Positions 1-5,956 of a DNA stretch of 64,000 nucleotides are shown here, piece after piece. The notes beneath the pieces were generated by a model. That model did not search any database. It had not been told where the DNA came from and saw only the letters and a program-made list of their open reading frames with translations. Within the stretch, counting starts at the first letter, position 1, and the number at the start of each line of letters is the position of its first letter. Made by a program: the position numbers and the translations under genes. Origin of the DNA: Dehalococcoidia bacterium (GTDB lineage Bacteria > Chloroflexota > Dehalococcoidia > Bin125); NCBI GenBank assembly GCA_963663185.1, contig OY760135.1:2223611-2287610 (forward strand), given 5' to 3'.

Positions 1-1330
1 AATAGGCTTCGAGGCTGAGTGGTTCAATCGCGAGACCGTGCTCTCGATCGTCAAGGAACAGTCTGAGCTGACGGTAGATGTCCATCGGGCCGAGGTTCTG
101 CGGCGTGGCGCTCATCAGTACGATCTTGTGATCGCCGGCGTCGAGATACTCCTGTAGGCCTTTGGAGCGCTGGTTGATGTTGCGGAAGTTGTGTGCCTCA
201 TCGATCAGGACGGGCCCGCGGTCGGCGTACTTCTCGTGCAGGACGATGCCGCGCGCGGGGCGGTCGGCATCGAGGTAGCGGTCGAATTCCTCATCGAACT
301 GAGGCGCGCCGGCTGGGACGATCATGCTGTGCGAGACGACCTCAGCGCCCAACTGGAAGCGCTCGTTGAAGGACTGCCACATCGGAATCAGGCTGTCCGG
401 TGCGAGGATCAACGGTTTGCCGTCGTTGGGATAGCTGAAATGGAGCTGTCGCAGCAGCTCGGCGCCGACGTAGGACTTGCCGAGACCGACGACATCGCCG
501 ATGTAGCAGCCGCCGTGCGCGTCGATTATGGCGAGTCCCTGGCGCACGGCGTCGATCTGGAAGTTGGCGAGCTGTTGATCGCGGACGGGCGCGGCGAGAT
601 CGCCGAGCCCGGCGCCAGAGTGATAGAGCTCGTAGAGGGCCTTGAGGTAGATGTCGTAAGGGGAGGCGCGCTGGATCGCCCAAGAGCGATCGAGGTCCTT
701 GACCAGCTCGTCGCTGACGTCTTCCGAGTCCTGCCAGAGGTCGTCAAACCATTCCTGGAGCGCCTGCATTTCGGCGTCGCCGGTGACGCGGACGTTGAGT
801 TCAGTGTTGCCCTCGAAGCCGGCCAGGGTGAGGTTGGAGGAGCCAACGACGGCGGAGCCGCGATCGGGTGAGTGAGGCGGATACCAACAGAGATAGGCCT
901 TGGCGTGCAGCGGACTCTTGAGGTAGGTGTGGACGGCGATCTTGCCGGCCGCGACGAGGTCTCGCAGGCGCTGGACGGCGGCCTGGCTGGAAGCTCGCTG
1001 CGGTAACTGCGCGACGCCGCTGGCGATCAGATCGATGGGCTGACGGGCGACCTCGGATCGGTGGCTGCGCCTGACCGTGCGGTCCTCGCCGAGTTGGAGG
1101 TGGAGCGCGCGCGATTGCTGTAGGCCGCTGGCGACCTCCTCAATAACCTGTTGGTCAGTGCGTCCGACGAGGATACGCACCTGGTCGAGGTTGGCGAGGT
1201 CGTCGGCGAGCGTCTCGAAGCCGCTGATGAAGAAGTAGCCAACGGCGATGTCGGCGCGCACGGAGCCAGCGAGGCTCTGCTGTAGTCGCGTGAGCAGCGA
1301 GGGATCGGTGCGGCTGTGGAGGATATCCAT
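1..1330 (-). CDS. PLD-like (HKD) nuclease domain fused to SNF2-family helicase; N-terminal about 440 aa only, the 3' end runs off the window
   Basis: Minus-strand translation from the ATG at about 1330 gives ...ADIAVGYFFISGFE..., ...HAKAYLCWY...GSAVVGSSNLT (HxK...GSxN, a PLD/HKD motif), then LANFQIDAV...GDVVGLGKSYVG (Walker A) and LIDEAHNFRN (DEAH box) and LMSATPQN (motif III). The ORF track does not list it because no stop lies within the window. Confidence 0.75.
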   Translation of the reverse strand, partial: MDILHSRTDPSLLTRLQQSLAGSVRADIAVGYFFISGFETLADDLANLDQVRILVGRTDQQVIEEVASGLQQSRALHLQLGEDRTVRRSHRSEVARQPIDLIASGVAQLPQRASSQAAVQRLRDLVAAGKIAVHTYLKSPLHAKAYLCWYPPHSPDRGSAVVGSSNLTLAGFEGNTELNVRVTGDAEMQALQEWFDDLWQDSEDVSDELVKDLDRSWAIQRASPYDIYLKALYELYHSGAGLGDLAAPVRDQQLANFQIDAVRQGLAIIDAHGGCYIGDVVGLGKSYVGAELLRQLHFSYPNDGKPLILAPDSLIPMWQSFNERFQLGAEVVSHSMIVPAGAPQFDEEFDRYLDADRPARGIVLHEKYADRGPVLIDEAHNFRNINQRSKGLQEYLDAGDHKIVLMSATPQNLGPMDIYRQLRLFLDDREHGLAIEPLSLEAY

Positions 1331-1687
1331 CGGTTCAGGCGGAGTCGGCGCGCAGCAGAGGGACGAATCCCGCCTGCTCAAAGTCGCGGTCGTAGGCGAG
1401 CGCGTCGTTGATGCCGCGCGCTTCCATGACCAGGAAGCTGGCGCAGTCGGTCAGGCTCCAGGACTGGTCAGGGCGGTCAGCGTAGCGTTCAAGAGCGGCG
1501 CGAAACTGCTCGGAGGTCTGGGGGATTACCTCAACCGCTGACTCCGTGATCAGTTGCTGGACATGCCTTGCCGCGGTCAGCCTCTGGGCCTGACCGCGGC
1601 CTGACAGCCCGGCCAGTACTTCGACGAGGACCATCTCAGTCGTGATGATCTCTTCCGCCAGGAAACGGCGTGACAGTTTCAGCGCCC

Positions 1688-3001
1688 TAGCAGGCTGCTG
1701 AAGAAGGGTATGTGAGATTATGGAGGAGGTGTTGAACCGATAGCTAAGGAGGTCTGCGATGCGCGGCGAGTCAGAGCGGCAGGCGACGATGATGATGGGT
1801 TTGACGCCGGACGGCTTCGTGCCCAAGAGTCACCCATTGCGGCGGATCAAGCCGCTGGTGGACTCGGCGTTGCGGCGCATGTCGCCCCTGTTCGACGAGA
1901 TTTACGCGGACAACGGGCGGCCCTCGATTCCGCCCGAGCACCTGCTCAAGTCGAGCCTGCTGATGGCCTTCTTTACGGTCCGCTCGGAGCGCCAGTTCTG
2001 CGAGCAGCTGCGCTGCAACCTGCTGTTCAAGTGGTTCCTGGACCTGAACGTGGAAGACGAGCCGTTCCATCCGACGACGTTCACGAAGAACCGTGAACGG
2101 CTCATGGATGCGGACGCGGCGCGGGTGCTGCTCAAGGAAGTCGTGCGCGAGGTGCGGCGGCGGCGGCGGCTCTCGGCCGACCACTTCACGGTTGACGGCA
2201 CGCTGCTTGACGCCTGTGCCTCGCACAAGAGCTATCGACCGCGCGATGAGCGACCGCCGGATGATGGTCGGCACGGCGGCCGCAACCACGACGTCGACTT
2301 CAAGGGCGAACGCCGCAGTCGCGACACGCACGCCTTGACGACCGACCCCGAGGCGCGGCTCTACCGCAAAGGCAAGCAGCAGGATGCCAGGCTCTGTTAC
2401 CTGGGCCATCTGCTGACCGAGAACCGTCATGGGCTGGTGGTTGATGTCGAACTGACCGAGGCCGACGGCTACGCCGAACGCGAGGCCGCCCTGGCGATGC
2501 TCACACGCAGTGTCAGGGGGCCGGCCACGCTGGGCGCGGACCGGGCCTACGACACGCGCGACTTCGTCTGGGACTTACGCGCGCTGGGGGTGACGCCCCA
2601 TGTGGCGCAGAACGAACAAGGCCGGCGCAGCGCGATCGACCGTCGCACGACCCGGCATCCGGGCTACGCGCAGAGTCAACGTCGGCGCAAACGGGTCGAA
2701 GAGGTCTTCGGCTGGATCAAGACCGTCGGCGCCGGCGGCAAGTTGCGCTACCTCGGCCGGGCCCGCAACAAGCTCTGGTTGGAACTGACCGCCGCGGCCT
2801 ACAACCTCACCCGCCTGGCCAACCTCGAGGCGGCCGCCGCATAGCTGAACCGCGCGGCCGCGGCCTCAAGCATCGGATCCAGCGCCCCGGATCCCGCCCT
2901 CTCACTTACAGGACCTGCCCGCGATCCCTGCTTAGCCAGCGCCCACTCGTCGAAGATGGCCAGGTCTGGCACGTATCATCCGTAGTTCAGCAGCCTGCTA
3001 G
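1688..3001 (+). mobile_element. IS5-family insertion sequence, about 1.3 kb, with 12-bp perfect terminal inverted repeats (caggctgctgaa / ttcagcagcctg) and a 4-bp target-site duplication CTAG (matches YTAR)
   Basis: Left end is ...gcgcc CTAG caggctgctgaa... and right end is ...ttcagcagcctg CTAG cgcgc.... A single DDE transposase ORF lies inside. The insertion interrupts a reading frame that is otherwise continuous. Confidence 0.8.
1759..2844 (+). CDS. IS5-family (IS4/IS5 superfamily, DDE) transposase
   Basis: N-terminus MMMGLTPDGFVPKSHPLRRIKPLVD...EHLLKSSLLMAFF...CNLLFKWFLDL...TFTKNRERL is typical of IS5-group transposases. DDE region at ...DGTLLDAC...LGADRAYD.... The true start may be the MMMG at about 1789. 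Confidence 0.85.
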   Translation: MRGESERQATMMMGLTPDGFVPKSHPLRRIKPLVDSALRRMSPLFDEIYADNGRPSIPPEHLLKSSLLMAFFTVRSERQFCEQLRCNLLFKWFLDLNVEDEPFHPTTFTKNRERLMDADAARVLLKEVVREVRRRRRLSADHFTVDGTLLDACASHKSYRPRDERPPDDGRHGGRNHDVDFKGERRSRDTHALTTDPEARLYRKGKQQDARLCYLGHLLTENRHGLVVDVELTEADGYAEREAALAMLTRSVRGPATLGADRAYDTRDFVWDLRALGVTPHVAQNEQGRRSAIDRRTTRHPGYAQSQRRRKRVEEVFGWIKTVGAGGKLRYLGRARNKLWLELTAAAYNLTRLANLEAAAA

Positions 3002-3064
3002 CGCGCAACGTATCTCGCGGCTCAATGAGCGCAAGCCAGTAACCCGTGTCGGCGAAGACGACGC

Positions 3065-3361
3065 TCACTCGTCCTCTTCTTTCAGGTGGCCGTAGAGGTA
3101 GTGCTTCTTGTTGCGGGCGAAATCGGTTGGTGGCCCTTCGAGTTCCTCGGACGGCCACGTCGCCTGCTCTGCCAGGATAAAACGGACATAGTCGGGATAC
3201 GGCAGTTCCGGTTCCGACTCTGGCACGGAGGTTTCAGCGGAGGAGAGCGGCATGGGCAATTCAGTCACGTCCAGGGAGACTGGGCAGCCCTCTTTGAGAT
3301 CGTGCGGGTCGAGCGGGGTGAGGACGCCGTTGGCGTAGATGGCTCGGATGGTGGTGGTCAT
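3065..3361 (-). CDS. DUF104/AF2212-like antitoxin, partner of the PIN toxin, with a C-terminal extension
   Basis: MTTTIRAIYANGVLTPLDPHDLKEGCPVSLDV is the classic start of the small antitoxins that pair with VapC. Its stop overlaps the vapC GTG start. Confidence 0.75.
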   Translation of the reverse strand: MTTTIRAIYANGVLTPLDPHDLKEGCPVSLDVTELPMPLSSAETSVPESEPELPYPDYVRFILAEQATWPSEELEGPPTDFARNKKHYLYGHLKEEDE

Positions 3362-3517
3362 GGCCGCGCTCCGATCACTTCCACGCTCAGTTTACCTGAG
3401 TTGACGCGACGCTCCGGCGGACTCGATGCTGAGGTCGTCGATACGCTGAGGTGTTTGAGATTGTTGGTCAGCAGCGCCAGCTCGTGTTGTAGCGCTGTCA
3501 CGGCGATCAGGGGGCGG

Positions 3518-3538
3518 GTCCCCGATCAAGTCGGGGAC
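3518..3538. repeat. gtccccga-tcaag-tcggggac hairpin (same family) in the region between the antitoxin gene and the surface-protein gene
   Basis: 8-bp perfect stem. Confidence 0.45.
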
Positions 3539-3850
3539 GGATAAGGCTGGGCCACGCTCTCCGTTCTGCCACCAAACTCGTCCAGCGCCGACAGCAGCCG
3601 CTCACAACATCCAGCCCAGTCGGGGCTTTGTCCAGCATCAGCTCGTCTACGAAGGCGGCGGAGCGAAAACCCGCGCGTCCGACGAGACTGAACGATCACC
3701 GTATTGCGATGCGGGCGCGAGCACCTGGACAAGCAGGTCGACTTCCAGTATCGTTTTCCGAGACGATGCAGCGTTTGCCATGCCGTTTGGCTGGTGAGAC
3801 GGGAGCAACCAGGAGCAGTGAACGGCTCGCGGAGCCGCAGATGGGAGCGG

Positions 3851-5956
3851 ATGATGTTAGGCCAGCACATGTTTACTCACCGAATGCATACCCGCCGAGC
3901 GCTCGCACTGCTGGCGCTGATAATCGTTGCCGCGCTTGCCGTCAATACTGGCGCTAACAGGGGCATCATTCTCGGCGCCGAAGGGCCGAGCCTCACGATC
4001 AGTTCCACTACCGCGGGCGCCATCACCGAGACCCTTGAGAGCGGAACTCAGACTGGCCTGGTTGGGATCAACCTGGTGACCGGGCAGGAAGTGACGTATA
4101 GGTTAGAGACCAATGCGAATTCCAACACTCCTCCATCCGACGTATCCGAAATGTACCTGGACTTATTTTGTCGGTGTAACCGAACGGCCGATGTCGTCTC
4201 GTACACGACCAAAGCCGGGACCCCTGCTGCAACCAAGGTCAGTCTCCCCGATGTGAACGTGAAAATCGAAGGGGCGCCTCTACCGGCAGACGCGTTTCCG
4301 ATCGAGTTCACACTGAAGGGCTTGCGCAGCACTCGATTAACGTCCGGCACAGGCCGAAGCATGACCCCCACGCAGGTGGGTCGTGCCTATACAGCTGCCG
4401 TCTATTGGAAACAAGCTGGCCAGGTGACCAGTAACGGAGTCGTTGGGCGGATCATCGTCCGCGAACGCAGCCATTCCGTAGCTGAAAGCATGATGCAGTA
4501 TGTGTCGATCGATAACGCCGCGGATGTCATGAAAGGCGGCGCCATCAGCTATCCCGTTCGGCTCTCCGACCGGCAGCAACATCCCGTCAACGCGACCCAG
4601 AACATCCATCTCGTCATCACCACCTCCTCCGATTACACGGACACATATGACAATCCCGTGACGCCGCTCAATCAGCACGTTGTGATGATACCGATGGGCG
4701 CATCCTCCACCACGATCTCGGTGCAATCCAGGGCCGATGTGCAAACGCGTCCTGTTGAACGTGTCTACATTAAGGCGTATCTGAGAGACCACCCTGACGG
4801 TGTGACCTTCTTTGATCCATATGAGCAGTTTGATGCGATCGGCAAGGTAGTCGAGGGCACCGCGTTTAGCTTCCTGTACCCAACCTTTGAAGGCGGAGAA
4901 GGAAGCATCATGCCTATTCCGATTCGGGTGGAAGGCAACGTCAATGTGGGCGAGTTCGTGCTGCGATTAAACTTCTCATTCTGGGCGCCGAGGGGGTACT
5001 CCAAGGCCGCGGATGCGAATGATCTGGGGAATATCAGTCAATATGACTGCCGAATCAATCCGACCACACGAGGGGAACATTTGATCAGCCTGCCTCTGCA
5101 TCAGGACAACATGTCCGAACCGTCTGAGGCATTTGTGATGCAGCTGAGTCTGGTCAGCGCGCCCGTCGGTGTGACTGCTAGTGCAACTCCAAACTACTAC
5201 TTCAAGCAAAGGAATCTCGCGTACGGATACATCCATGAACAGCCTCCCTATACGTACCACAACCTCACCTCCGACTGCGTGACGGTTGAGGCACAGGGTT
5301 CCGTTCCAAGTTCCCAGCCGCTGCGTTCTCCAATCAGCTTGGGCGCAAGCGCTATAGCACTCGGTGAGGGCAGCAGCTTCAGTTACGACGTCACGCTCGA
5401 GAGCGACCCAGGCGAGCAGAGAGTGACCGTCACCCCCATCAGCAGCGACGAGGATACCATCGAGTCGCCGACCCCAATCTCGTTTGATTCCGGCAACTGG
5501 GATCAACCACAGCAGGTGATAGTGTCCGCCGCCGCTGATGCCGATGATGAGGATGACGTCGTAATGATCGGACATCGGGTTGAAGGCGTCAACGATGCCC
5601 CGGTCGGGCCGGCTATCTTCGCCACGGTCACGGAGCAACCGACAGTGGGTCTCGACTTGCGTCAGCCCACGCAACGATCATTCGGCGATCAACCATTCTT
5701 CGCCTACTGGATCCGACTTGACCGGCAACCGTCGTCCGATCTCGAAGTCGAACTGGCGCCTGCATCAGATAGCGTTGGCGTACAGTTGCATACAAACAGT
5801 CTCAGCTTCACCACCGAGAACTGGGATCGCTATCAGATCGTGGTACTGAAACCGCTAGACAGTTCTGCCGGCAGCGAGCTCAAGATCACTCACAGCGCGA
5901 CGACTCACATCATCAACAGCGGCGAGTCAGTCTCAGCCACGATCTCAGGTAGCTGA
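3851..5956 (+). CDS. Large secreted or membrane-anchored surface protein with repeated beta-sandwich modules (Calx-beta-like or cadherin-like)
   Basis: Start at MMLGQHMFTHRMHTRRALALLALIIVAALAVNTGA (signal peptide or anchor). Recurrent modules end in ...SEPSEAFVMQLSLVSAP, ...ISFDSGNWDQPQQVIVSAAADADDEDD and ...LSFTTENWDRYQIVVLKPLD. GC is about 55% against about 67% for the flanks. Confidence 0.6.
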   Translation: MMLGQHMFTHRMHTRRALALLALIIVAALAVNTGANRGIILGAEGPSLTISSTTAGAITETLESGTQTGLVGINLVTGQEVTYRLETNANSNTPPSDVSEMYLDLFCRCNRTADVVSYTTKAGTPAATKVSLPDVNVKIEGAPLPADAFPIEFTLKGLRSTRLTSGTGRSMTPTQVGRAYTAAVYWKQAGQVTSNGVVGRIIVRERSHSVAESMMQYVSIDNAADVMKGGAISYPVRLSDRQQHPVNATQNIHLVITTSSDYTDTYDNPVTPLNQHVVMIPMGASSTTISVQSRADVQTRPVERVYIKAYLRDHPDGVTFFDPYEQFDAIGKVVEGTAFSFLYPTFEGGEGSIMPIPIRVEGNVNVGEFVLRLNFSFWAPRGYSKAADANDLGNISQYDCRINPTTRGEHLISLPLHQDNMSEPSEAFVMQLSLVSAPVGVTASATPNYYFKQRNLAYGYIHEQPPYTYHNLTSDCVTVEAQGSVPSSQPLRSPISLGASAIALGEGSSFSYDVTLESDPGEQRVTVTPISSDEDTIESPTPISFDSGNWDQPQQVIVSAAADADDEDDVVMIGHRVEGVNDAPVGPAIFATVTEQPTVGLDLRQPTQRSFGDQPFFAYWIRLDRQPSSDLEVELAPASDSVGVQLHTNSLSFTTENWDRYQIVVLKPLDSSAGSELKITHSATTHIINSGESVSATISGS

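What the first reader, a model, noticed from the sequence alone, without database searches (positions are those of the whole stretch)
1..3361. Three-gene module: an intact antitoxin, then a PIN toxin split by an IS5-family element, then a coupled PLD-SNF2 helicase
The IS (1688-3001, with 12-bp inverted repeats and a CTAG target-site duplication) sits inside a vapC gene. Removing the IS and one CTAG copy restores a 136-aa PIN protein with all four catalytic acidic residues, so the insertion is recent and the gene was functional before it. The antitoxin stop and the vapC start overlap (GTGA). Only 4 nt separate the vapC stop from the ATG of a large PLD(HKD)-SNF2 helicase, so all three genes appear translationally coupled. 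PLD-nuclease plus SNF2-helicase architectures are typical of anti-phage and restriction-like systems. Here the toxin is knocked out while its antitoxin remains. The IS is also likely to be polar on the helicase gene.
Basis: seen in the sequence. Interest (0 to 1): 0.6.

Follow-up and report, generated by a model that had tools for sequence, protein, structure and literature searches.

The report
IS-split vapC beside defence helicase
A jumping gene has recently landed inside the toxin gene of a toxin-antitoxin pair that sits directly in front of a nuclease-helicase gene of a restriction-like phage-defence family. The event is real and cleanly documented but ordinary; the more interesting point is that this toxin-antitoxin-helicase arrangement recurs in many related bacteria.

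Summary
All three genes lie on the minus strand.

- **vapB:** window 3065-3361, AF2212-like, 98 aa.
- **vapC:** starts at GTG 3068 (GTGA overlap with the vapB stop) and is split by the IS.
- **IS:** a 1307-bp IS5-family element at 1691-2997, with 12-bp perfect inverted repeats and CTAG copies at 1687-1690 and 2998-3001.
- **Helicase:** a PLD(HKD)-SNF2 gene starts 4 nt after the vapC stop and runs off the window after 443 codons.

Removing the IS and one CTAG gives a 140-aa (not 136-aa) PIN protein. Three IS-free sister contigs (~99% nt identity) carry exactly that protein and a single CTAG, so the insertion is real and recent.

Among 80 related loci (one genome per species, mostly Dehalococcoidia):

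- 34 have this PIN family directly 5' of the helicase (4 as remnants);
- 8 have a second PIN family there;
- 5 have an aspartyl-protease-like gene there;
- 66 have an Eco57I-type adenine methyltransferase further upstream.

The cassette therefore usually sits between the M and R genes of a two-gene restriction-like system. This species has no methyltransferase within 10 kb of the locus. Two of three sister helicase alleles carry disabling mutations.

Verdict: a new member of known kinds, of moderate interest.

The parts
1..1330 (-). 5' part (443 codons) of the PLD(HKD)-SNF2 nuclease-helicase gene. ATG at 1330-1328; the gene runs off the window edge. Full length is 1188 aa in sister strain L086.
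   Evidence: Translation. Pfam PLDc_2 4e-11, RE_NgoFVII, SNF2-rel_dom. PADLOC PDLC01075 'HKD+Snf2' 1.9e-24. Best fold match is SauUSI 7CLG, 6e-10. Full-length sister alleles.
1331..1334 (-). 4-nt spacer (ACCG on the minus strand) between the vapC stop and the helicase ATG. No Shine-Dalgarno-like sequence is evident upstream.
   Evidence: Gaps of 3-7 nt recur in the closest clade and in loci with other upstream gene families.
1335..1690 (-). 3' part of vapC (rest of codon 24 to codon 140, plus stop). Carries E46, D104 and D123/D125.
   Evidence: Identical to the intact VapC of L083, L086 and L087.
1687..1690 (.). Left copy of the CTAG target-site duplication.
   Evidence: The empty site in L083 has a single CTAG.
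1691..2997 (+). IS5-family insertion sequence, 1307 bp. 12-bp perfect terminal inverted repeats at 1691-1702 and 2986-2997.
   Evidence: Absent from L083, L086 and L087. A related copy (81% nt) lies in L004.
1759..2844 (+). Transposase gene (361 aa), antisense to the operon.
   Evidence: Pfam DUF772 + DDE_Tnp_1. NCBIfam NF033581 'IS5 family transposase', 245 bits against a cut-off of 140.
2998..3001 (.). Right copy of the CTAG target-site duplication.
2998..3068 (-). 5' part of vapC (GTG start at 3068-3066, codons 1-23 and two bases of codon 24). Carries catalytic D7.
2976..3068 (-). Truncated reading frame left by the insertion: 23 VapC residues plus 7 IS-encoded residues (SRLLNYG), then a stop.
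   Evidence: ORF list; sequence.
1335..1826 (-). Open frame that starts at a TTG inside the IS and runs without a stop into the vapC 3' part. If translated, it gives a D7-less fusion that ends at the normal vapC stop.
   Evidence: ORF list. This is mechanical only; no evidence of expression.
3065..3361 (-). vapB antitoxin gene (98 aa), intact. AF2212-like N-terminal domain. A GGAG lies 7 nt before the ATG.
   Evidence: Pfam PF01954 2.2e-8. PDB AF_2212 2NWT 0.006. The same 98-aa product is encoded in L083.
3410..3530 (-). Decayed 3' remnant of a second PIN gene (family 'PIN_B'), upstream of vapB.
   Evidence: tblastn 62% over 21 aa, E 4e-4. Nucleotide match to the 3' end of the intact PIN_B gene of L006, and translation '...LIAVTALQHELALLTNNLKHL'.

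Best explanation
**What is shown**

- The region is a chromosomal vapB-vapC-helicase operon of a Dehalococcoidia-like bacterium.
- A 1307-bp IS5-family element has recently transposed into a CTAG spanning codons 23-24 of vapC and duplicated the CTAG.
- The insertion separates catalytic D7 from E46, D104 and D123, so the PIN toxin is inactivated while vapB stays intact.
- Sister strains at about 99% identity carry the uninterrupted gene.
- The helicase is an HKD nuclease fused to a Swi2/Snf2 motor, about 1164-1188 aa long.
- In 66 of 80 related loci the helicase is partnered with an Eco57I/MmeI-type N6-adenine methyltransferase encoded upstream on the same strand.
- In those relatives a variable slot between the two genes usually holds a small cassette placed 3-50 nt before the helicase start. 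The cassette is most often this AF2212-PIN pair.

**What is inferred**

- The pair M + HKD-SNF2 works as a restriction-modification-like defence. The methylase marks self DNA. The helicase translocates on unmarked DNA and cuts it, probably as a dimer, because each chain has one HKD motif.
- vapBC is an embedded, dispensable accessory. It is co-transcribed and probably translationally coupled with the helicase.
- It most likely acts as a stabilising (addiction) cassette or a back-up abortive-infection RNase, released when the labile antitoxin is no longer replenished.
- In this strain the IS removes that function and probably lowers helicase expression. It interrupts transcription with 1.3 kb of antisense, untranslated DNA, and it breaks coupling to a helicase start that has no obvious ribosome-binding site.
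- In this species the methyltransferase is missing from the locus, and sister helicase alleles carry a frameshift or a premature stop. The module may therefore be losing function.
For: - **Anatomy:**
- **Empty sites and synteny:**
- **IS family:** (245 bits > 140 cut-off).
- **PIN identity and catalytic residues:**
- **Helicase identity:**
- **Conserved adjacency:**. PIN_A is found in 34 loci, PIN_B in 8 and an Asp-protease-like gene in 5.
- **Spacing:**
- **Co-divergence of PIN and helicase:** Mantel r 0.62, 0 of 2000 permutations.
- **Methyltransferase partner:**
- **Dispensability of the toxin:** PIN remnants lie next to helicases that are intact, or open to the contig end, in L010, L030, L057 and L070. 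35 loci have none of these three gene families directly upstream.
- **No methyltransferase here:**
- **Sister-allele lesions:**
- **Same PIN family in front of a different helicase-nuclease, after an Eco57I methylase:**
- **Published precedent:** PIN and other RNases embedded in BREX-related loci as proposed back-up effectors, and insertion hotspots inside helicase-methylase operons (PMC12839542; PMC11232893).
Against: - No expression data exist. A sigma-70 consensus scan found no promoter on the minus strand, so co-transcription and polarity are inferred from spacing only.
- In many relatives the gap is 31-52 nt rather than 4 nt.
- The PIN-helicase distance correlation could partly reflect shared vertical descent of both genes with the species tree.
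- The same PIN family also occurs away from any helicase, so it is not an obligate partner.
- Helicase dN/dS between sister strains is 0.27, close to neighbouring genes at 0.14-0.21. This argues that the gene was functional until very recently even without a linked methylase, so the 'decay' reading is weak.
- The L087 stop removes only 38 C-terminal residues.
- The helicase beyond codon 443 of this strain was not seen.
Confidence: 0.8

Rival explanations
1. vapBC is only a selfish hitch-hiker. Toxin-antitoxin cassettes accumulate in variable defence loci and happen to land in the gap before the helicase, with no functional link to it. The IS hit would then be a neutral event in dispensable DNA.
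For: - The same PIN family occurs without any helicase, or in integrase/HTH mobile contexts.
- 35 of 80 helicase loci lack such a cassette, and four have only PIN remnants.
- The slot also holds unrelated genes, including AAA_15 ATPase, Abi_alpha, integrases and DUF6338.
Against: - Three unrelated upstream gene families end 0-7 nt before the helicase start.
- PIN divergence tracks helicase divergence.
- Catalytic residues are conserved in 28-29 of 29 homologues.
- No other PIN_A or PIN_B homologue lies elsewhere in the 64-kb window, so the adjacency is strongly enriched.
Confidence: 0.3
2. vapBC is an integral regulator or trigger of the restriction-like system, not an accessory. For example, it could set the timing or level of helicase synthesis through coupling. 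Or it could be a latent RNase held in check by the restriction complex, as PrrC is by EcoprrI. The IS insertion would then disable the whole system.
For: - Tight spacing, weak start codons (TTG or GTG at the aligned start in 48 of 81 fetched helicase loci) and no visible ribosome-binding site before the helicase.
- A position between the M and R genes in most relatives.
- The same cassette before a different helicase-nuclease in another methylase locus.
Against: - Many intact helicases have no cassette or only a PIN remnant.
- The cassette has its own antitoxin, unlike PrrC.
- No experiment supports it.
Confidence: 0.15
3. The IS insertion was selected, not neutral. Knocking out VapC and/or silencing a methylase-less nuclease-helicase relieves a cost to the cell.
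For: - There is no methyltransferase within 10 kb in this species.
- Independent lesions occur in sister helicase alleles.
- Toxin loss with antitoxin retention is the only viable order of decay. This rests on established toxin-antitoxin biology, not on a test here.
Against: - VapC is 100% conserved and intact in all three IS-free strains.
- Helicase dN/dS is 0.27, similar to neighbouring genes.
- This is a single event, so selection cannot be distinguished from drift.
Confidence: 0.15
4. The IS boundaries are an assembly artefact.
For: None found.
Against: - The IRs are perfect, and the 4-bp direct repeat matches the single CTAG of three independent IS-free assemblies exactly.
- A 99-aa remnant gene call (M42-A140) exists on an independent public 3.28-Mb contig.
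Confidence: 0.01

Closest known systems
VapBC type II toxin-antitoxin systems (PIN toxin; closest solved relative M. tuberculosis VapC20, PDB 5WZF)
   Same: - PIN domain with the four conserved acidic residues.
- A small antitoxin gene upstream that overlaps the toxin start.
- Sequence match to VapC20 at 6.7e-10 over residues 3-133.
   Different: - The antitoxin is AF2212-like (PF01954) with a long C-terminal tail, not one of the usual DNA-binding antitoxin folds.
- The RNA target is unknown.
- The pair is built into an operon with a nuclease-helicase.
IS5 family insertion sequences (IS5 group)
   Same: - DDE transposase above the NCBIfam IS5 cut-off.
- About 1.3 kb long, with short terminal inverted repeats.
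- A 4-bp duplication of a CTAG target. From my own knowledge of ISfinder descriptions, IS5 itself duplicates YTAR.
   Different: No exact copy is on record. The nearest relative seen is 81% identical at nucleotide level, in another Dehalococcoidia genome.
HKD-Swi2/Snf2 helicases of 'Type-2 BREX-related (BR)' systems (PMC12839542) and the PADLOC candidate 'HKD+Snf2' (PDLC01075)
   Same: - N-terminal HKD endonuclease fused to a Swi2/Snf2 motor.
- Partnered with an N6-adenine methyltransferase in most relatives.
- PADLOC match of 2e-54 to 6e-58 for full-length relatives.
   Different: - No DUF499 ATPase and no DUF3780 gene is conserved in 80 loci.
- The system is two genes plus a variable slot.
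- The window's species has no methylase at the locus.
SauUSI, ATP-dependent type IV restriction enzyme (PDB 7CLG)
   Same: Best structural match to the 443-aa fragment, covering both the PLD nuclease and the first helicase lobe.
   Different: - SauUSI is modification-dependent and has no methylase partner, whereas most relatives of this helicase have one.
- No named Pfam domain is detected in the C-terminal ~330 aa of full-length relatives, so a SauUSI-type C-terminal reader domain is not evident.
- The motor here is Snf2-type; the best PDB sequence hits are RapA, Rad26 and CHD1L.
- The model is of modest quality (pLDDT 66.8).
DISARM (DrmD SNF2 helicase, DrmC PLD nuclease, DrmMI methylase) and Hma (HmaA Snf2-nuclease, HmaB, HmaC; PMC11232893)
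   Same: - The parts list is the same: Snf2 motor, PLD or other nuclease, adenine methylase.
- Hma loci also host inserted defence genes between their core genes.
   Different: - Scores are far below the NCBIfam DrmD cut-offs (137 against 610).
- No DrmA/DrmB and no DUF499 ATPase are present.
- The nuclease here is N-terminal HKD, not a C-terminal PD-(D/E)xK.
PrrC anticodon nuclease embedded in the EcoprrI type Ic restriction locus (from my own knowledge; not tested here)
   Same: An RNase toxin gene placed between the modification and restriction genes of a restriction system. This is a model for a back-up suicide effector.
   Different: - PrrC has no separate antitoxin and is unrelated to PIN.
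- No evidence here of any physical or regulatory link.

Membership tests
VapBC (PIN) type II toxin-antitoxin | Toxin has a PIN domain with the conserved acidic quartet. | tested here: met
   PF01850 6.2e-11 on the reconstructed 140-aa protein. D7, E46, D104 and D123 align with VapC20 and are conserved in 28-29 of 29 homologues. In the window itself the gene is split, so D7 is separated from the rest.
VapBC (PIN) type II toxin-antitoxin | A small antitoxin gene lies immediately upstream in the same operon. | tested here: met
   98-aa AF2212-like gene, PF01954 2.2e-8. Its stop overlaps the vapC start as GTGA. The same pairing is seen in relatives.
VapBC (PIN) type II toxin-antitoxin | The toxin arrests growth and the antitoxin neutralises it. 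| not testable with these tools
   Needs expression experiments.
IS5 family insertion sequence | DDE transposase of the IS5 family. | tested here: met
   NF033581, 245 bits against a cut-off of 140, covering 2-284 of 285 model positions. Pfam DUF772 + DDE_Tnp_1.
IS5 family insertion sequence | Terminal inverted repeats and a short target-site duplication, with a matching empty site. | tested here: met
   12/12 inverted repeats, CTAG direct repeats, and a single CTAG in three IS-free alleles.
HKD-Snf2 nuclease-helicase (PADLOC PDLC01075) | HKD motif plus Snf2-type helicase motifs in one chain. | tested here: met
   HAKAY...GSSN, GLGKS and DEAH are all present in the 443-aa fragment and invariant in the alignment. 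PLDc_2 and SNF2-rel_dom. Helicase_C in full-length relatives. PADLOC 1.9e-24 for the fragment and ~1e-54 to 1e-58 for full-length relatives. The second helicase lobe of this strain lies outside the window.
DISARM | DrmD-level similarity, with drmA and drmB (DUF1998) in the locus. | tested here: not met
   NCBIfam DrmD scores 137 bits against a cut-off of 610. There is no such gene within 10 kb in the sister strains, and none is conserved in 80 loci.
Type-2 BREX-related (BR) system (PMC12839542) | HKD endonuclease N-terminal to a Swi2/Snf2 helicase. | tested here: met
Type-2 BREX-related (BR) system (PMC12839542) | DUF499 AAA+ ATPase and DUF3780 genes in the locus (the paper reports DUF3780 in 98% of taxa). 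| tested here: not met
   Clustering of all ORFs of 80 loci found only the helicase (80 loci) and the methylase (70 loci, counting inverted and partial fragments) widely conserved. The next largest clusters are the antitoxin and PIN genes. DUF3780 and DUF499 HMMs were not run on every ORF.
Type-2 BREX-related (BR) system (PMC12839542) | N6-adenine methyltransferase partner. | tested here: inconclusive
   Present upstream in 66 of 80 relatives (Eco57I + TaqI_C). Absent from the 64-kb window and from +/-10 kb in the sister strains. The rest of the genome was not seen.
SauUSI-like type IV restriction enzyme | PLD nuclease + SF2 helicase + C-terminal modified-base reader domain, acting without a methylase. 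| tested here: inconclusive
   Fold match to 7CLG at 6e-10 for the nuclease and first lobe. No named Pfam domain in the last ~330 aa of relatives. Most relatives are linked to a methylase, which argues against a modification-dependent enzyme.

The most novel reading that the evidence does not exclude
The position directly 5' of the helicase start may be a dedicated, translationally coupled effector slot. It would belong to a widespread but undescribed two-gene restriction-like system of Chloroflexota (Eco57I-type methylase + HKD-Snf2 nuclease-helicase). PIN toxins, or an aspartyl-protease-like protein, are swapped in and out of that slot. They would act as a back-up suicide arm, released when the restriction arm or host gene expression is blocked by a phage, in the manner of PrrC with EcoprrI. 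The IS-bearing and IS-free sister strains would then be a natural knock-out pair for testing this.
Probability: 0.2. Interest if true: 0.65.

Novelty: new member of a known kind. Interest (0 to 1): 0.4.

Why it matters
On its own, the IS hit is a routine example of mobile-element mutagenesis of a toxin gene. Its value is as a clean, dated natural knock-out. Four near-identical strains carry this locus. One has the IS in vapC. One looks fully intact. Two have helicase lesions.

The comparative result is of wider use. A large family of HKD-Snf2 nuclease-helicases in Dehalococcoidia and other Chloroflexota is usually paired with an Eco57I-type methylase. Between the two genes it carries a hot-swappable toxin-antitoxin slot abutting the helicase start.

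This bears on an open question in phage-defence biology: whether toxin-antitoxin pairs inside restriction-like loci are back-up effectors, regulators or just addiction cassettes. It also points to specific loci where that could be tested, such as the contiguous M-vapB-vapC-R arrangement of L011.

Tried and rejected
1. **Suspected systematic truncation of the helicase family.** The first protein search returned almost only 250-765-aa homologues with frameshifted tails. I rejected this as a family trait because 73 of 80 genome loci have open reading frames of about 1164 aa. Why the listing was biased is not explained.
2. **Methyltransferase in the window.** tblastn with four representatives found nothing in 64 kb or in +/-10 kb of the sister strains.
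3. **Exact look-ups.** Neither the transposase nor the 99-aa vapC remnant P0123 retrieved a contig, so the source genome could not be extended directly. Syntenic sister contigs were used instead.
4. **Metagenome scan.** A scan with a 19-mer flanking the insertion site gave two hits with no further similarity. These are chance matches.
5. **Promoter and RNA scans.** The sigma-70 promoter and terminator scan showed nothing useful on the minus strand. Rfam and tRNA scans of the window were empty.
6. **Family membership.** DISARM and Type-2 BR membership were rejected on missing core genes and sub-threshold scores.
7. **Structure prediction.** The AlphaFold2 model of the 443-aa fragment is only moderate (pLDDT 66.8). 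I used it only for the domain-level match to SauUSI and PLD nucleases.
8. **A decaying module.** I considered this reading but weakened it, because helicase dN/dS (0.27) is close to that of neighbouring genes.

Full report
**Observation**

All genes of the finding lie on the minus strand.

- **vapB:** 3361-3065, 98 aa. Its first 34 residues match the AF2212-like antitoxin family (PF01954, 2.2e-8; PDB AF_2212).
- **vapC start:** the vapB stop overlaps a GTG at 3068-3066 (GTGA). This GTG opens a frame reading VSVVFADTGYWLALIEPRDTLRA.
- **Interruption:** the frame is broken at 2998/2997.
- **vapC 3' part:** from 1690 to 1335 the same frame continues to ...LLRADSA and a stop.
- **Helicase:** after four bases (ACCG), an ATG at 1330 opens a frame that stays open for 443 codons to the window edge.

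Between the two vapC parts lies a 1307-bp element at 1691-2997. It has perfect 12-bp terminal inverted repeats (CAGGCTGCTGAA). It is flanked by CTAG at 1687-1690 and 2998-3001. It carries a 361-aa transposase gene on the plus strand.

The transposase has DUF772 and DDE_Tnp_1 domains. It scores 245 bits against NCBIfam's IS5-family model, whose cut-off is 140.

Removing 1691-3001 restores a 140-aa protein, not 136. This protein matches PIN (PF01850, 6.2e-11). Its closest solved relative is M. tuberculosis VapC20 (6.7e-10). D7, E46, D104 and D123 align with VapC20's acidic residues.

**Empty sites**

An exact look-up of the antitoxin found a 5.7-kb contig, L083, from an independent sequencing run. 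An exact look-up of the reconstructed toxin found two Mb-scale contigs, L086 and L087.

- All three carry vapB, an uninterrupted vapC whose product is identical to the reconstruction, and the helicase.
- At the insertion point they read CAGCGCCCTAGCGCGCAACG, with a single CTAG.
- L086 and L087 are syntenic with the window over more than 10 kb at about 99% identity. Shared neighbours include ABC permeases, an esterase, two CoA-transferases, a short-chain dehydrogenase, a PNPOx-like gene and a 700-aa protein.
- L083 is identical to the window from 699 to 3849 apart from the IS.

The insertion is therefore real and recent. It is the only structural difference at the locus.

A 99-aa gene call corresponding to M42-A140 of VapC exists on a public 3.28-Mb contig. 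This is most likely the source genome, but it could not be retrieved.

**The helicase**

The 443-aa fragment has:

- a PLD/HKD nuclease domain (PLDc_2 4e-11, with a weaker NgoFVII-type match);
- the first lobe of an Snf2-type ATPase, with GLGKS and DEAH motifs.

PADLOC's best model is 'HKD+Snf2' (PDLC01075). It scores 1.9e-24 for the fragment and 2e-54 to 6e-58 for full-length relatives.

Full-length relatives are about 1164 aa. They contain PLD, the Snf2 N-lobe, a roughly 260-aa insertion, Helicase_C, and about 330 C-terminal residues with no named domain. The best sequence matches in the PDB are RapA, Rad26 and CHD1L.

A moderate-quality AlphaFold2 model (pLDDT 66.8) matches SauUSI best. That match spans both the nuclease and the first helicase lobe. 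Next come the NgoAVII R protein, Zucchini, Nuc and Snf2 remodellers.

The protein falls far below NCBIfam cut-offs for DrmD and for the 'phospholipase D-like anti-phage protein'.

**Comparative context**

A scan of one genome per species found 379 relatives, and the best 80 were kept. Nearly all are Dehalococcoidia or other Chloroflexota MAGs. The helicase reading frame is intact in 73 of these loci.

Clustering all ORFs of these loci showed only one other widely conserved gene. It is a roughly 1040-aa protein encoded upstream on the same strand. Sixty-six of the 80 loci carry this gene or recognisable pieces of it. It has Eco57I, MmeI_Mtase and TaqI_C domains. It matches PADLOC type IIG models at up to 2.5e-132.

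No DUF499 ATPase, DUF3780, DrmA or DrmB gene is conserved. The family is therefore a two-gene methylase + HKD-Snf2 system. It resembles the 'Type-2 BREX-related' systems described in PMC12839542, DISARM and Hma, but it fails their membership tests.

**The slot between the methylase and the helicase**

The methylase never directly abuts the helicase: the smallest gaps seen are 293 and 386 nt, and both hold PIN remnants. Directly 5' of the helicase lie:

| Gene 5' of the helicase | Loci |
|---|---|
| The window's PIN family with an AF2212-like antitoxin (four are only remnants) | 34 |
| A second PIN family, also with an AF2212-like antitoxin | 8 |
| A retropepsin-like aspartyl-protease gene | 5 |
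| None of the three gene families | 35 |

In the last group, the genes examined include integrases, an AAA_15 ATPase, Abi_alpha and DUF6338.

The distance from the upstream stop to the helicase start is 3-7 nt in three groups. These are the window's clade, most loci of the second PIN family, and the protease loci. It is 31-52 nt in most other loci. The aligned helicase start is TTG or GTG in 48 of the 81 fetched loci examined.

Among 28 loci with the window's PIN family, PIN distances correlate with helicase distances (Mantel r 0.62, 0 of 2000 permutations). The catalytic residues are conserved in 28-29 of 29 sequences.

Sampling other members of the PIN family gave three kinds of context:

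- the cassette after an Eco57I methylase and before a different helicase-nuclease (RNase_H_2 plus an SF1 helicase);
- the cassette after a helicase-methylase pair;
- contexts with no helicase at all.

The cassette is thus strongly, but not exclusively, associated with methylase-helicase loci. It is dispensable for keeping the helicase open.

**This species**

There is no methyltransferase anywhere in the 64-kb window. There is none within 10 kb on either side of the locus in the sister strains.

Upstream of vapB lies only a decayed 3' remnant of the second PIN family, at about 3410-3530. It is collinear with the intact gene of L006. Beyond it is a divergently oriented 750-aa ORF with no Pfam match.

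Downstream of the helicase, the sister strains have a large fn3/Glug protein on the other strand, followed by housekeeping genes.

The sister helicase alleles differ:

| Allele | Helicase state |
|---|---|
| L086 | Intact, 1188 aa |
| L087 | Premature stop 38 codons early |
| L083 | One-base deletion at about codon 666, not in a homopolymer |

Yet dN/dS between L086 and L087 is 0.27, against 0.14-0.21 for neighbouring genes. The gene was therefore under constraint until recently. Whether a methylase elsewhere in the genome protects the cell is unknown.

**Mechanism**

*Shown:* an IS5-family element inserted at a CTAG in vapC, split the catalytic residues and left vapB intact.

*Inferred:*

- The three genes form an operon. 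This rests on overlapping or 4-nt junctions, no room for signals between the genes, and conserved order.
- Helicase translation depends at least partly on ribosomes finishing vapC, because no Shine-Dalgarno-like sequence precedes its ATG. By contrast, vapB and vapC have GGAG and GAGGA upstream.
- The IS, antisense and 1.3 kb long, should therefore reduce helicase expression.

One caveat applies. A frame opening at a TTG inside the IS (1826) runs without a stop into the vapC 3' part. If it were translated, some coupling could persist.

The most likely role of vapBC is an embedded accessory, either an addiction cassette or a back-up RNase. This fits the published proposal for RNases inside BREX-related loci. 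It also fits the insertion hotspots seen in Hma operons. No tool here can test it.

**Verdict**

The finding is correct and now well documented. Each component belongs to a known kind:

- VapBC;
- IS5;
- an HKD-Snf2 defence-type helicase.

The event itself is ordinary. The conserved methylase-[toxin-antitoxin]-helicase architecture, and the set of near-identical strains with different lesions, give it moderate interest.

Noticed in passing
window 3410-3530 (-): Decayed 3' remnant of a second PIN gene just upstream of vapB. It is collinear with the intact tandem PIN gene of relative L006, which suggests an ancestral tandem of two toxin-antitoxin cassettes and a later deletion.
   Followed up: partly
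window 3518-3538: Perfect 8-bp stem hairpin GTCCCCGA-TCAAG-TCGGGGAC inside that remnant. It is unique in the window (0 expected by chance). Function unknown.
   Followed up: partly
window 62-698 (helicase codons 211-423): All 16 differences from L083 fall in this 640-bp stretch. The adjacent 3.1 kb of shared sequence (window 699-3849, IS excluded) is identical. This looks like a recombination tract or a chimeric short-read contig.
   Followed up: partly
L083 3190-3215; L087 13878-13880: Sister-strain helicase alleles carry a one-base deletion (about codon 666) and a premature stop (codon 1151). L086 is intact at 1188 aa.
   Followed up: yes
L009 2634-2802 / 4019-4187, 3437-4258 (-), 4242-5198 (+); the same gene set in L008, and the integrase family in 11 loci: After the methylase there is an inverted TaqI_C specificity-domain fragment, 169-nt inverted repeats (84%) and a tyrosine recombinase gene. 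This looks like an invertible, phase-variable methylase specificity.
   Followed up: partly
L048, L050, L052, L060, L062 (just 5' of the helicase); L018, L022, L025, L026 4788-5159: A 120-130-aa retropepsin-like aspartyl-protease gene occupies the same slot as the PIN cassettes, or directly follows the methylase with a 4-nt overlap. Its role is unknown.
   Followed up: partly
L088-L093 (e.g. L088 1-8445): The same AF2212-PIN family sits between an Eco57I methylase and a different effector, a 1137-aa RNase_H_2 + SF1 (AAA_11/AAA_12) helicase. This suggests the cassette travels among several methylase-helicase systems.
   Followed up: no
L001 8001-10768 (= L031): A helicase homologue is cut off at 528 aa and followed on the other strand by a large serine recombinase. 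This may be an integrated element in the helicase gene. The locus lies next to a type I-E CRISPR-Cas array and a HepT/MNT pair.
   Followed up: no
L004 9640-10923: A degenerate relative of the window's IS (81% nt) lies just downstream of the helicase in the closest PIN-bearing relative.
   Followed up: partly
L087 4283-5106 and 17393-18201: Two copies of another IS5-type element (DUF4096 + DDE_Tnp_1) are present in L087 but absent from the window and L086. Insertion sequences are active in this lineage.
   Followed up: no
protein hits P0001-P0120: The protein-database hits for the helicase N-terminus were almost all 250-765-aa truncated or frameshifted ORFs, although most genome loci encode intact ~1164-aa proteins. 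The reason for this listing bias is unexplained.
   Followed up: partly
window 3704-5956 (+): A 750-aa ORF (700 aa as called in the sister strains) with no Pfam match, divergent from the vapB promoter region.
   Followed up: no
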